Positions 10,453-28,943 of a stretch of DNA of 64,000 nt are shown here, in pieces (the first letter of the stretch is position 1; every line of letters begins with the position of its first letter). Under the pieces are notes generated by a model. It was given only the letters and a program-made list of their open reading frames with translations. It did not search any database and had not been told where the DNA came from. A program made the translations under genes and the position numbers. Source of the DNA: Saccostrea cucullata (taxonomy: Eukaryota). The DNA lies in the NCBI RefSeq assembly GCF_032062105.1, contig NW_026928590.1, positions 124,001-188,000 on the forward strand. Reading direction: 5' to 3'.

Positions 10453-10460
10453 TATAAATA
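10453..10460 (+). promoter_or_regulatory. TATA box of cassette B
   Basis: TATAAATA about 108 nt upstream of the ATG, positionally conserved in C, D and E. Confidence 0.5.
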
Positions 10461-10560
10461 GATTCTGAACATACATTTGACTATATTTGTTGCTTGTACA
10501 TGTACATTGTAACGAGGCTAGATTTTTATATATAATTTAGAATCCTATCAGAAGAAAAAC

Positions 10561-25200: not shown

Positions 25201-28200
25201 GCCATCACTGCCCTTAACAGCAGGCGTAACCTTAAAAACCACACGCGTTATTATTACTACTGGTAAGAAAAATGGAGAAAGAGTTAATACTAATTTTTAA
25301 AAAATAATTTTACAATCCTAATTCAATAAAATGCATTGAATAATACATTTGAACAATTTCTCAAAGGGGTAATTGACGAAAAATTACATTATGGATTAAA
25401 GAATATCAGCAGACAACTTGAAACCCATGGTTTCGTTTGTTCTATGGTCAAAATAATGACTTCATCAGCACATACAATCATATGCTAATTGGGTTTTTAA
25501 AGTAATAGTTAGGTTACTATTACACAGTGAATTGTCGACGGTACTTTTTCGTAAAAAGAAGGTAACTCTTGCTATTGCCTCCAATTTGACATTTAGATTT
25601 ATGGACAATGTTTTGTCGATTAATAAGCATTTTATTTATTTCCATTGTTATGTCGATACGATATATCCCGGTGAGCTCGATATAAAAAAAAAACACTGTT
25701 ACTTTCTCATACCTATTGTTAATTCAATATTGACGACGAAGTAGCACACAGCAGGTGTGACCGGTCACCAGGAGATGATCACTCCTCAATTAGTCCACCT
25801 TTATTGTTTTGGAGGTCTGTGTTCGCTCTGCTCCTATTTTGTATTGTTTCGTGGGCTGTTGAGCTTGAATACTGTTCGTTATCTCCATGTATTTCATTTC
25901 TCGAACATGGCAAGGACCTTACGAGGGGTTGGATCGTTCGGCAAAGGAAGCTCCAACCCCAACCCTGCCTATGATCTTATCTCTTTTTAGGAGGTCCGTG
26001 TTTCTCTGCACCTTAATTTGTATTTACAAATTGATTTTTTAAATGGAATACAGTTTGTTATTTTAACTTTAATTTTTATTTATAATAAAATTCTCTAACC
26101 TAACGAAACTTTCAAGATATAGAGATTATGAATGAAATGAAAATAATAATTCATCGTACAGTCTTTTGATTAGATGACATTCTTAGAAGTATGTCTAAAA
26201 TATAAACACTTTTAAATTATCGAAAAGTATTTGTTTAACAAAATGCAAGATATTTTTATTTAAGTTAATTTAAATATGTTCATGCAATATGGCATGTATA
26301 AATAAAACATAAAGAATGAATTTAAATTGTTTTAGGAACAAAGATATGAACTGCTTATTTTTTTTTTTTACAAAATGAGTCGAAAACAATTCAATTTTTA
26401 ACTTGAAGTGAAAAAATGAATATAGTGATCAGTAATCATGCTCAAAAGTCCAGTTAAAGAATGCAAATCAAGAGAATTCGTTTAAAACCGACTTTAAACA
26501 GGGCCATTTAAGATCAGTCACTTGTCAGCAGCTTGCCTGGGTTTACAAATTGATGATCATTCACGATATTTATATTCAGTAACAAATCTCTTCATCAAAA
26601 AGATGTGTCAGATTCTGTAGTGTCTTTTATCAAGAGTTCAATTTGAAATGTAGAGTCGACATGTGTAAATCTAAATGTTACCTTATGAGTCAAATGATTT
26701 GACACCGAGTTCCGAGTTCCTCGATGCAATCATTTCCTCAGAACTCAAGTACAATAAGTGAATAAGTGCTTACTTAAACTTTGATTAACATGATGGAACC
26801 TTGTTCTTTCCTTCGAAGCAGGAGTTTTGAAACATTTTATGTCATTGCTGTATACATGTACCCGTTATTATACAAGGGTGATAAATAGTTCTCTTGGCTT
26901 TGCATTTAGACTTACAACATATGATAAATTCAGAAATACCGAACTCACCAAGCACAACACTGAATGCTGTAACGTCAACAGAAACCACAACGTTTGTTCT
27001 CAGTCAAGAAATGGGTTTCAAAGTTAAAATTCTTAACTCTCTTTAGAAAGATAAAAAAAACCTTCTTTAAACGAGATTGTTGAAAGCTATTTAAGCTTGT
27101 CAGTAGCTTCTCCTATTATTTAACTTGATTATAGTTAACGTTTATATTCAGTAAGAAATTTCTATATGTAAAAGAGGTGTCAGATTATGTAGTGTCTTTT
27201 ATCAAGAGTTCAATTTGAAACGTAGATTCGACATGTACAAATCTAAATTTTATATTGTGAGTCAAGTGTTTTGACTTAGAGTTCTGAGTTCCTCGAAGCA
27301 ATCATTTCCTCAGAACTCAAGTACAATAAGTGGATAGGTGTCTACTTAACCTTTGATTAATTTCATGGAACCTTTTTCTCTTCTTCAAAGCAGGAGTTTT
27401 GAAAGATTATATAGTATTTCTGTATACATGTACCCGGTATTATCACATTTTCAAAAATGAAATACTGTAATTTATTCATTGAATAAAAATGATATCCTTT
27501 CACAGTGTGACAAATATCAGAAGCGTGATTTAACTCTCGATTTACCTTCTAATAACGAAGATTGTTGTAAAAATATTCCTCGGACTGTTATAATAATATA
27601 TATAGAGAGAGTGTAAATAAACCATTCTGACAGAGAATAAGACTGCCAAAATTCCCCCCACACTATGTCTGATATCCATGTTTACAATGTTTTCAATCTC
27701 GCATCACTTAGCTATGACGTATCAACCGCTCAACTATGACGTCATGTAGCCTGTGACTGTATTACAAGAAGACAAATACGCCAAGGGAAATTTAAAGAAA
27801 ATGTAATAAACAGAAAATTCAATGTTTTGTAGTTGAATATGGAATTTATTTCACTCGTGAAACACGATTTTTTTTTTATATTTTACGAGTGCGATTAGCC
27901 TGTCCCACACGTGAATTCAATAAATTCCATTATCAACAAAACATTGAATATCCTCTATTTATACAAGAGCAATCAATATTTATCTCGACTTTGATTTCAG
28001 ACACACAACATTCAATAAATTCAGAAATACCGAACTCATCCAGTACAACAATAAATGCGGTATCGTCAACGAAACCCACAACGTCTGCTCCTAGTCGAGA
28101 AATGGGTTTGAAAATTAGGATTCTTAACTGTTTATAGAAAAAAACCTTCTCTAACACCATTTCTGCTGCTTTATGTTTCATTCATAAAAACGCAGTTTTT

Positions 28201-28943
28201 TATGTCAATTAATCAAACAAGATTTCTAGTAATATAACCCTTATGATATAAAGAAAAAGACTATTTATTTAATTGTTATTAGCCTTTTGAAATAATTTAA
28301 ATACCTGAGTTTGTTTTCAATTGTTGTAAAATGACTAAATAAGATAAAATGAGTCTATGTAGGAAGCTTTATATTTCTTGCATTGTTTAAACAGTGATTC
28401 TGATGGTGGGAATCGGAGTGGTGGAAGTGACGATAATTATTGTGGGAATTCTAGCAGTCAAGCGATTTAGACAGAATAAGTAAGAAACACAATAAAATCA
28501 ATCATATTTCCTTCGCATTGTAGCAACTGTTCTTGTCAATGTAAGATAGAAAGAAAAATAAAGGATTCAACAATAAAATACTTGAGATTTCGTCCATTTC
28601 TACAAGAGATTCTCTTTTGTTCTACAGAAGCAACACGATAAGACGCAGTAAAGAAAATGACGGTCGACCTGTCTCCAGAAAGACAGTCTGTAGTATTGAT
28701 AACGTATATGCCACAATTCCAGAGGAAGAATTCGATGAGAACCCATATAAAGATCTGTCTGAAGGGGTTTATGATACAACCTCAAAACGAAGATCTCATG
28801 TCAATGGTGGCTGGAACGAATATTCCAGAGGAAGTTTTTATACTCGTTTGTTTCGAAGTTCAAAAATAAGCGGAAGCAGGCCAGTAGAGGAAACACACCC
28901 AATGTTTTCAACATTCAGAGGTTCGAAAAAGGAAACAAAGTAA
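22293..28943 (+). CDS. Cassette C: complete type I membrane protein, signal peptide - CUB - mucin-like stalk - 2 spacer exons - TM - tyrosine-motif tail (~479 aa); join(22293..22344,22659..22876,23507..23657,24855..25262,26910..27014,28001..28105,28395..28479,28628..28943)
   Basis: All introns are GT-AG with consistent phases (1,0,1,1,1,1,2); the spliced length is 1440 nt and open to TAA. Leader MYAVNLYFVSVVTAFWF; CUB motifs ITSPGYP..NY....Y.W.V.AP, C.DYL, C, GNKLMIVFHSN, KGFRL; TM VILMVGIGVVEVTIIIVGILAV followed by KRFR. Confidence 0.85.
23703..23949. repeat. ~121-bp direct tandem duplication at the end of a palindrome-bearing repeat (related copy at ~53590-53910)
   Basis: gaatttacataatacatattatccgataat...cgtcacaatgagttacc occurs twice in tandem. 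Confidence 0.8.
24369..24560. mobile_element. Tc1/pogo-type MITE, TA TSD
   Basis: TA|CAGTGGACC ... GGTCCACTG|TA with internal ATCCGGATA repeats. Confidence 0.8.
25500..26040 (+). mobile_element. Penelope-like retroelement fragment (RT relic plus 3' repeat core)
   Basis: NLTFRFMDNVLSINK...YVDTIYPGELDIK resembles Penelope-like RT FRYIDDVLSLNN...IYP.ELEIK. Confidence 0.6.
26522..28130 (+). repeat. Tandem duplication (~570-bp unit) that doubled the spacer exon of C; the second unit has a ~500-bp insertion
   Basis: 26522-26870 aligns with 27095-27442; homology resumes near 27958 into the second spacer exon. Confidence 0.8.
28395..28479 (+). CDS. Transmembrane exon of cassette C (VILMVGIGVVEVTIIIVGILAV-KRFRQN)
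   Basis: acag acceptor and gtaaga donor; 22-aa hydrophobic run followed by a basic stop-transfer; paralog at 37245-37329. Confidence 0.85.
28628..28943 (+). CDS. Cytoplasmic terminal exon of cassette C with ITAM-like and ITIM-like tyrosine motifs
   Basis: The phase-2 acceptor tctacag joins the TM exon in the frame of ORF 28617..28943; it encodes DNVYATIPEEEFDENPYKDL, VYDTT and SFYTRL; paralog at 37531. Confidence 0.8.

What the first reader, a model, noticed from the sequence alone, without database searches (positions are those of the whole stretch)
10453..28943. Many ectodomain cassettes, few tails: soluble decoys or protocadherin-style variable/constant splicing
Seen: B and D have their own TATA box and leader, and A, B and D have no TM exon before the next cassette. 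B's last exon ends in a phase-1 donor (14853) compatible with the phase-1 acceptor of the TM exon (28395). If unspliced, B stops at 14901-14903 next to AATAAA. Inference: either B-type genes make secreted CUB-mucin decoys, or alternative promoters splice different CUB cassettes to shared TM/tail exons, as in clustered protocadherin or UGT1 loci.
Basis: partly seen in the sequence, partly recalled or inferred. Interest (0 to 1): 0.7.

Follow-up and report, generated by a model that had tools for sequence, protein, structure and literature searches.

The report
Oyster receptor cluster with secreted paralogs
In an oyster, a tandem cluster of CUB-mucin genes interleaves membrane-anchored copies with tail-less copies that share one ancestral shortened ending, so the tail-less copies are likely separate genes for secreted proteins (most now broken) rather than protocadherin-style cassettes spliced to a shared tail.

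Summary
But tails are not few. On this contig 10 ectodomain cassettes go with 7 TM+tail pairs, and E's tail lies 2.7 kb beyond the window. A is a pseudogene; D has a frameshifted leader and a phase-2 last donor. Phase-1 compatibility is inherited family-wide and carries no information. The last exons of 11 tail-less copies form one side of a strongly supported branch (100/99). Nine of the 11 have a stop or frameshift before the donor, and all 11 carry a poly(A)-type hexamer at one aligned column (1 of 17 TM-linked copies). Their CUB exons do not group by tail status (AU p=0.0004): ectodomains were swapped in DNA. Best reading: a birth-and-death receptor family with a likely secreted sub-lineage (3 of 10 copies intact, B among them, against 9 of 10 TM genes). 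Protocadherin-like splicing is unlikely (about 7%). RNA contigs showed only within-gene joins of TM-class paralogs; B's own transcript was not seen. The TM copies carry a membrane glutamate and an ITAM-consensus tail.

The parts
135..465 (+). Gene A mucin exon (331 nt, frameshifted); A's leader and CUB exons lie upstream of the window and carry stops; pseudogene
1919..5087 (-). Inverted 3' part of gene A, with its tail-less-type last exon (about 4716-4807, TAA at codon 8, ATTAAA downstream)
10453..10459 (+). Gene B TATA box (TATAAAT), same aligned column in 15 of 17 leaders
10561..10612 (+). Gene B leader exon (predicted signal peptide; Arg where most paralogs have Trp at residue 16), phase 1
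11751..11968 (+). Gene B CUB exon a
   Evidence: 82% identical to P0003, whose CUB passes the Pfam cut-off
12264..12414 (+). Gene B CUB exon b
12889..13263 (+). Gene B Ser/Thr-rich mucin exon, phase 1 at both ends
14749..14903 (+). Gene B last exon: S exon 14749-14853 with a retained weak donor (GTTTGA), then a read-through tailpiece to TAA 14901-14903
14895..14904 (+). Two overlapping AATAAA hexamers (14895, 14899) followed by a T/GT-rich tract; class-specific putative poly(A) signal
17021..17453 (+). Degenerate second mucin exon after B (stops and frameshifts); a similar relic follows most tail-less copies
22181..28943 (+). Gene C, complete receptor (479 aa): TATA 22181, leader 22293-22344, CUB 22659-22876 and 23507-23657, mucin 24855-25262, S1 26910-27014, S2 28001-28105, TM 28395-28479, tail 28628-28943
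28395..28479 (+). TM exon of C with a glutamate inside the helix (GVVEVTIII)
28628..28943 (+). Cytoplasmic tail exon of C with YATI-x9-YKDL (ITAM consensus)
36414..37798 (+). Orphan 3' half of an 'x-type' gene: dead exon 36414 (no GT donor), S exon 36869-36976, TM 37245-37329 (Arg in the helix), frameshifted tail from 37531
43173..51121 (+). Gene D, tail-less: TATA 43173, leader 43281-43322 (42 nt, out of frame), CUB 44272-44489 and 45266-45416, mucin 46194-46544, last exon 50973-51069 (phase 2; stop 51080-51082), AATAAA 51116
51319..51771 (+). Degenerate second mucin exon after D
55416..63095 (+). Gene E, complete receptor: TATA 55416, leader 55522-55573, CUB 55865-56082 and 57520-57670, partial mucin exon from 59165, mucin 62754-63095; S, TM and tail exons beyond the window (G000:C10727:190323-191279)

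Best explanation
This is a tandem family of separate CUB-mucin genes in which tail-less copies, descended from one ancestral truncation of the last extracellular exon, are interleaved with complete membrane receptors, and intact tail-less copies such as B likely end their own mRNA at the nearby AATAAA and would make a secreted CUB-mucin protein. Shown from sequence: gene order, exon structure, a single origin of the tail-less 3' end, the stops, frameshifts and hexamer, and CUB exons that do not follow tail status. Inferred: (1) one ancestral copy lost its TM and tail exons and gained a poly(A) hexamer by an A-to-T change in an A-run of the old intron; most descendants also carry a TAA at codon 8 of the last exon, which B and its 96% twin B2 read as TAC; (2) blocks of two or three genes were then amplified by unequal crossing over; (3) recombination or gene conversion moved ectodomain exons between tail-less and TM copies, so 'variable/constant' mixing happens in DNA, not in splicing; (4) tail-less copies decay faster than TM copies. 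Untested: that B is transcribed and secreted, and that it competes with the ITAM-bearing receptors for a ligand (decoy role, about 25%).
For: Gene order on three contigs: tail-less genes are interleaved with complete TM genes, each of which has its own ectodomain. Tree of the S exon plus 100 nt downstream: 11 tail-less against 17 TM-linked rows, 1 change, support 100/99; exon alone 91/86. 9 of 11 tail-less S exons are blocked before the donor: 7 have a stop inside the exon (TAA at the same aligned column), 2 end in phase 2. GT donor lost in 3 of 11 tail-less and 0 of 17 TM-linked copies; two of those three have also lost the acceptor. Hexamer at one aligned column: AATAAA in 8, ATTAAA, AATACA and TATAAA in one each, 11 of 11; AATAAA at that column in 1 of 17 TM-linked copies. 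CUB tree: tail status needs 6 changes, no fewer than shuffled labels; holding the tail-less genes together is rejected (AU p=0.0004), and B's CUB groups with the TM gene P0003 at 100/99. B has no hydrophobic stretch after the leader (best 19-residue mean 1.11, against 2.6-2.9 in three TM genes). RNA contigs bridge ordinary within-gene joins of TM-class paralogs: mucin to S, S1 to S2, and S to a sequence starting TGA as the TM exon does (only 3 letters shown).
Against: Only 3 of 10 tail-less copies with ectodomain exons have an intact frame, against 9 of 10 TM genes, which also fits simple decay of partial duplicates. The hexamer arose once from an A-run, so 11 of 11 is one inherited event kept over time, not 11 independent ones; 21% of random 76-nt windows hold AATAAA or ATTAAA. 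dN/dS of 0.46 between two intact tail-less sisters (p about 0.05) is not clean evidence of selection, because their introns differ by only 5-8% while CUB dS is 0.23, pointing to gene conversion. B itself lacks the class stop and keeps an open phase-1 donor. B's leader is weakly hydrophobic (0.73) and has an Arg substitution. One public gene model joins exons of two paralogs 100 kb apart on this contig.
Confidence: 0.6

Rival explanations
1. The tail-less cassettes are non-functional debris: one partial duplication lost the TM and tail exons and was carried along passively each time the block was duplicated; B is intact only because its ectodomain was recently refreshed by recombination with a TM gene.
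For: 7 of 10 tail-less copies are broken; degenerate mucin relics and orphan tails show that debris is carried along in this array; B's ectodomain is closest to a TM gene.
Against: TATA box and leader kept in most copies; hexamer kept or changed only to single-base variants in 11 of 11; mucin exon length is a multiple of three in 7 of 10 tail-less copies, and between two intact sisters 2 of 2 exon indels are in frame against 3 of 12 in flanking non-coding DNA (small numbers). Some one- and two-base frameshifts may be assembly errors.
Confidence: 0.3
2. Alternative promoters splice different CUB cassettes to shared TM/tail exons (protocadherin, UGT1A or sDscam style); B's last exon would act as an IgM-like composite exon whose weak donor competes with the poly(A) site.
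For: B to C-TM is in frame; B and B2 alone lack the class stop; mucin donors are phase 1 in intact copies, so splicing from 13263 is possible; an orphan TM+tail lies downstream; public model XP_062616396.1 joins a TM exon at G000:C10727:61.7 kb to the window's orphan tail exon 100 kb away, a computational model in a paralog array where mis-mapping is a plain alternative.
Against: No single constant region: 7 TM+tail pairs for 10 ectodomains on this contig. 9 of 11 tail-less last exons are blocked before the donor. B's donor would have to skip C's leader exon and five intact C acceptors over 13.5 kb. The orphan tail is the 3' half of a gene that is complete on C8743 and C22314, has Arg in its helix and a frameshifted tail, and is deleted in the near-identical block after gene f1. 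The public models of the orphan tail carry no ectodomain.
Confidence: 0.07
3. The orphan tail at 36.9-37.8 kb is an alternative 3' end of gene C only (two TM/tail sets for one ectodomain, as described for Hydractinia Alr6); B and D are not involved.
For: C's S2 donor is phase 1 and the 36869 acceptor is phase 1 with an open frame through the TM exon; it lies 8 kb after C's stop.
Against: Its DNA continues collinearly with complete x-type genes on two other contigs; TM Arg and tail frameshift; lost after the twin gene f1.
Confidence: 0.05

Closest known systems
CEACAM/PSG family (PMC2832619, passages read)
   Same: Tandem cluster with transmembrane, ITAM-like and secreted paralogs; ligand-binding exons exchanged by gene conversion and recombination; birth and death; in a bat, secreted forms encoded by exons with a defective donor followed by stops.
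   Different: Ig domains in mammals; here a single CUB plus mucin stalk in oysters. No ITIM partner, ligand or expression shown here.
LILRA3 in the LILR cluster (PMC3867304, start of abstract in a search listing)
   Same: A soluble member encoded by its own gene among membrane receptors, and often lost.
   Different: One soluble gene, not an amplified tail-less lineage; secretion is shown for LILRA3 and only predicted here.
Clustered protocadherins, UGT1A, chelicerate sDscam (PMC4835542, passages read; UGT1A recalled)
   Same: Each ectodomain cassette has its own promoter and leader and ends in a phase-matched donor.
   Different: Those loci array many variable cassettes (2-13 or at least 40 in sDscam) before one constant region. 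Here complete genes are interleaved and most tail-less last exons stop before the donor.
Hydractinia Alr family (PMC9546547, passages read)
   Same: Invertebrate tandem family of single-pass receptors with ITAM tails, many pseudogenes and potentially secreted products; one presumed partial duplicate (Alr30) proved to have its own TM exons, a caution that applies here too.
   Different: Ig and Fn3 domains; secreted forms there arise by alternative splicing within a gene.
IgM secreted/membrane switch (PMC5546720, one passage read)
   Same: B's last exon has the same anatomy: internal donor, short tailpiece, proximal poly(A) site.
   Different: B has no membrane exons of its own downstream; the nearest belong to gene C.
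Uncharacterised oyster CUB-mucin-TM proteins (XP_048730332.2 Ostrea edulis, XP_061194294.1 Saccostrea echinata, XP_022326203.1 Crassostrea virginica)
   Same: Same family: mucin stalk, TM with glutamate, Tyr-bearing tail in the longer ones, one CUB in the full-length ones.
   Different: Automatic names only; no function found in my searches. ITAM spacing is longer or the motif is missing outside the closest group.

Membership tests
Variable/constant clustered genes (Pcdh, UGT1A, sDscam) | Each variable cassette has its own promoter | tested here: met
   TATA at one aligned column in 15 of 17 leaders; sequence only, no start sites mapped
Variable/constant clustered genes (Pcdh, UGT1A, sDscam) | An array of variable cassettes precedes one shared constant region | tested here: not met
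   10 ectodomains and 7 TM+tail pairs interleaved on C10727
Variable/constant clustered genes (Pcdh, UGT1A, sDscam) | Variable cassettes end in an open, in-frame donor | tested here: not met
   9 of 11 tail-less last exons have a stop or phase shift before the donor; met only by B and B2. Mucin-exon donors remain phase 1 in intact copies.
Variable/constant clustered genes (Pcdh, UGT1A, sDscam) | Transcripts join a distal cassette to the shared constant exons | tested here: inconclusive
   RNA contigs showed within-gene joins of TM-class paralogs only, none at 95% or more to B's last exon; one computational model joins TM and tail exons of two paralogs
Secreted paralogs in receptor clusters (PSG/CEACAM, LILRA3 kind) | Separate gene among TM paralogs, with leader and no TM segment | tested here: met
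Secreted paralogs in receptor clusters (PSG/CEACAM, LILRA3 kind) | Own terminal exon and poly(A) site in use | tested here: inconclusive
   Stop and hexamer are class-specific in DNA; use in RNA not shown
Secreted paralogs in receptor clusters (PSG/CEACAM, LILRA3 kind) | Protein is secreted and shares a ligand with a membrane paralog (decoy) | not testable with these tools
   needs proteomics and binding assays
CUB domain (PF00431) | Pfam score above the curated cut-off | tested here: met
   P0003 scores 25 bits against 21.4 and matches neuropilin CUB chains; B's CUB exon a is 82% identical to it. Single exons alone did not score.
ITAM-bearing receptors | Yxx[I/L]x(6-9)Yxx[L/I] in the cytoplasmic tail (consensus from PMC9546547) | tested here: met
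   8 of 8 C-type tails have Y[AS]TI-x9-YK[DE]L
ITAM-bearing receptors | Tyrosine phosphorylation and Syk/Shark recruitment | not testable with these tools
   ITAM-Syk signalling is reported for another oyster receptor (PMC6994640, passages); not tested for this family

The most novel reading that the evidence does not exclude
B has reopened the class stop (TAA to TAC) and its last exon works as an IgM-like switch across gene boundaries: polyadenylate at 14.9 kb for a secreted form, or splice past gene C's ectodomain to C's (or the orphan) TM and ITAM tail, giving promoter-chosen receptor variants, a molluscan protocadherin-like system in the making.
Probability: 0.07. Interest if true: 0.75.

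Novelty: new member of a known kind. Interest (0 to 1): 0.33.

Why it matters
The splicing idea would have been a first for molluscs, but the anatomy points to the familiar pattern of receptor clusters with secreted paralogs. What remains of value is an uncharacterised oyster family: single CUB, mucin stalk, a glutamate inside the membrane helix and an ITAM-consensus tail, with ectodomains that diverge about three times faster than the tails (dN 0.21 against 0.07) and are exchanged with a tail-less lineage. If the tail-less proteins are secreted and share ligands with the receptors, this would be a paired receptor/decoy system in a bivalve, directly testable with 3' RACE and plasma proteomics. 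Three literature searches (titles and abstract starts seen) turned up no description of this family; the library lacks most subscription journals.

Tried and rejected
RNA test of B. Thirteen runs were listed, all with a small share of words (0.05-0.07); I laid 5 of the 13. On 10200-29300 the tables were filled by intronic repeats: 15 of 115 joints were shown, none at exon boundaries, so that call says nothing about long junctions. On 14680-15040 at 80% likeness, 13 contigs were laid from 3 of 4 runs, 12 on the S exon; none was 95% or more alike to B, none ran past 14853 into the read-through segment, and one (X1 record 3) could not be assigned to a class. These are contigs from animals that differ from this genome by about 8-9% in the exon pieces shown, so lack of cover is no evidence that B is silent. 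Searching for a B-type protein with its C-terminus: three protein searches returned only P0003 and P0004; complete genes C, f1, E and f3 were also absent, so the collection is incomplete here and absence is uninformative. Single-sequence structure prediction of P0003 failed (mean pLDDT 37.8); no fold search was run. dN/dS as evidence of selection on tail-less genes was set aside because of the intron/exon mismatch. The idea that the degenerate mucin relic is a live terminal exon was rejected: all 8 copies translated have stops or frameshifts and 6 more did not match my donor pattern. Earlier findings of this scan: none returned. My first exon coordinates were off by one and were replaced; the two 'u_' rows of the CUB tree were left out of the AU test, and x-type S exons were left out of the S tree.
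Full report
What the locus is. The window is G000:C10727:124001-188000. Proteins that their source labels Saccostrea cucullata match this contig exactly, so this is a rock oyster. The repeated gene has a 52-nt leader, two CUB exons (218 and 151 nt), a mucin exon, one or two short Ser/Thr exons ('S', 105 nt), an 85-nt TM exon and a tail exon. The closest annotated protein, P0003 (489 aa), passes the Pfam CUB cut-off. Relatives with mucin, TM and tail exist in Ostrea edulis, Saccostrea echinata and Crassostrea virginica under automatic names.

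Checking the observation. All coordinates given for B are right. A, B and D have no TM exon before the next cassette. Three things were missed. A is a pseudogene with four lesions and an inverted 3' part. D's leader is 10 nt short, which shifts the frame unless a cryptic AG at 44302-44303 is used, and its last exon ends in phase 2. And the window edge hides E's tail, which starts 2.7 kb beyond it. The phase match between 14853 and 28395 is expected by descent: B's last exon is a paralog of C's S exons with the same GT donor, and all introns in the family are phase 1 except CUBa-CUBb and TM-tail.

Counting tails. I fetched all of C10727 (345,682 bases), C8743 from base 60,001, all of C22314 and parts of eight other contigs. 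On C10727 the order is: TM gene (partial), orphan tail, tail-less, TM gene, orphan S exons, A, B, C, orphan tail, D, E, tail-less B2, TM gene: 10 ectodomain cassettes and 7 TM+tail pairs. C8743 and C22314 show the same interleaving. This is an array of two- and three-gene blocks, not a variable region in front of one constant region as in sDscam (PMC4835542, passages). Some contigs may be alleles of each other (C10727:12-56 kb and C8743:169-200 kb are collinear at about 91%), so copy counts are not independent.

The orphan tail. The exons at 36.4-37.8 kb align, with their downstream DNA, to complete 'x-type' genes on C8743 and C22314 (85%), so they are the 3' half of a gene whose 5' half is missing here. 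The TM exon has an Arg in the helix and the tail is frameshifted; after gene f1, in a block 91-96% identical to C's, its TM and tail exons are gone. A public gene, LOC134278088, models it without an ectodomain; its isoform X1 joins the TM exon of the other orphan (61.7 kb) to this tail exon 100 kb away. That is the only hint of cross-paralog splicing that I found; it involves neither B nor D, and mis-mapping between paralogs would give the same model.

The tail-less 3' end has one origin. In a tree of 28 S exons with 100 nt of downstream DNA, the 11 tail-less copies are one side of a branch with support 100/99; with the exon alone, 91/86. Seven of the 11 have a stop inside the exon (TAA at the same aligned column; TCA in TM-linked copies), two (D and a sister) have an extra T and end in phase 2, and only B and B2 are open, with TAC. 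Three have lost the GT, two of these also the AG. All 11 have AATAAA (8) or a one-base variant (3) at one column 42-53 nt past the old donor, followed by a T/GT-rich tract; TM-linked copies have an A-run there, with AATAAA in 1 of 17. A stop before the donor makes splicing to a TM exon pointless, so the class reads as terminal exons. The hexamer is one inherited mutation, so it is suggestive and not proof.

Ectodomains are shuffled in DNA. In a tree of 19 CUB exon pairs, tail status needs 6 changes, the same as shuffled labels, and holding the 8 tail-less genes together against 9 TM genes is rejected (AU p=0.0004). B's CUB and mucin exons group with the TM gene encoding P0003 (100/99 and 100/100). 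Thus a B-like ectodomain already exists on a TM tail as a separate gene, which is what unequal crossing over or conversion gives, as in CEACAMs (PMC2832619, passages).

Are the tail-less genes alive? Three of 10 with ectodomain exons have an intact frame to a natural stop (B, 317 aa; two on C8743, 265 and 269 aa), against 9 of 10 TM genes. Small frameshifts could be assembly errors. Mean CUB dN/dS is 0.62 among 7 tail-less and 0.44 among 9 TM genes, and 0.24 for TM plus tail, but between two intact tail-less sisters the introns are less diverged (5-8%) than the CUB exons (dN 0.10, dS 0.23), so these ratios cannot be read as purifying selection on the tail-less genes.

RNA. Contigs from three runs bridge mucin to S, S1 to S2 (45 letters beyond the join, starting with the S2 sequence) and S to a sequence beginning TGA like the TM exon; three of the four 3' loose ends carry the TM-class signature and the fourth is the S2 start. 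So the weak S donor is used in TM-class genes and the family is expressed. What these runs did not cover is listed under Tried and rejected; B's 3' end remains untested.

The receptors. All 8 C-type tails have Y[AS]TI-x9-YK[DE]L, which meets the ITAM consensus quoted in PMC9546547; ITAM-Syk signalling is reported in Pacific oyster (PMC6994640). A glutamate sits inside the TM helix in all 8, and an acidic residue in 15 of 18 TM-bearing relatives among 24 that I picked by hand from 118 hits. From my own knowledge, acidic TM residues mark ITAM adaptors such as DAP12, FcR-gamma and CD3 chains, where they pair with a basic residue in a partner; whether this applies here is untested. An immune or recognition role is a reasonable guess, not a result.

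Verdict. The best reading is a birth-and-death receptor cluster with a once-founded, likely secreted sub-lineage of which B is one of few intact members (0.6); the main rival is inert debris (0.3); variable/constant splicing is about 0.07. This is a new member of a known kind; interest 0.33. No supplementary files were read; none bears on the claims above.

Noticed in passing
window 28395-28943 and paralogs: TM helix with a conserved glutamate plus an ITAM-consensus tail in 8 of 8 C-type genes; the acidic TM residue is kept in relatives from other oyster genera.
   Followed up: partly
window 1919-5087: Inversion inside gene A: this stretch is a reverse copy of 14477-17117 and carries A's last exon on the minus strand.
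   Followed up: partly
window 9162-9369, 21057-21266, 54338-54542: A 200-nt block 1.0-1.4 kb before the ATG is conserved in 17 places in the fetched contigs and holds AGGAAGT and GGAATTCCC/GGAAATTC words resembling ETS and NF-kB sites (motifs recalled, not tested against chance).
   Followed up: no
window 17021-17453, 51319-51771, 8478-8535: A degenerate second mucin exon follows most tail-less copies; the relics group together in the mucin tree, outside the live exons.
   Followed up: partly
window 59165-59330: Gene E has an extra, partial mucin exon with an acceptor and an open frame of about 78 codons but no homologous donor; if used it could end E early as a secreted form.
   Followed up: no
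G000:C10727:61383-61771 joined to window 37531: Public model XP_062616396.1 joins exons of two orphan tails 100 kb apart; real long-range splicing or read mis-mapping.
   Followed up: partly
G000:C8743:124-131 kb and 254-260 kb: Two intact tail-less sisters have less divergence in introns (5-8%) than in CUB and mucin exons (10% and more), pointing to exon-focused gene conversion or diversifying selection.
   Followed up: partly
G000:C10727:12-56 kb against G000:C8743:169-200 kb: Collinear at about 91% while the flanking gene content differs: divergent haplotypes or an old segmental duplication; possible presence/absence variation of family members.
   Followed up: no
G000:C8743:104278-105355: Exons matching the second half of P0015 (named NDUFAF5-like by its source) lie just upstream of the cluster; P0015 itself looks like a chimeric model with a CUB-mucin N-terminus.
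   Followed up: no
window 30154-30579, 41855-42420, 23703-23949: Tandem repeats of 166, 149 and 121 nt; many intronic stretches are high-copy dispersed repeats, which dominated the RNA search.
   Followed up: no
L034-L035 (G000:C8743:215.3-217.7 kb): The first CUB exon of a B-like tail-less copy is split by a 2.1-kb insertion whose two ends are reverse complements of each other, like a DNA transposon.
   Followed up: no
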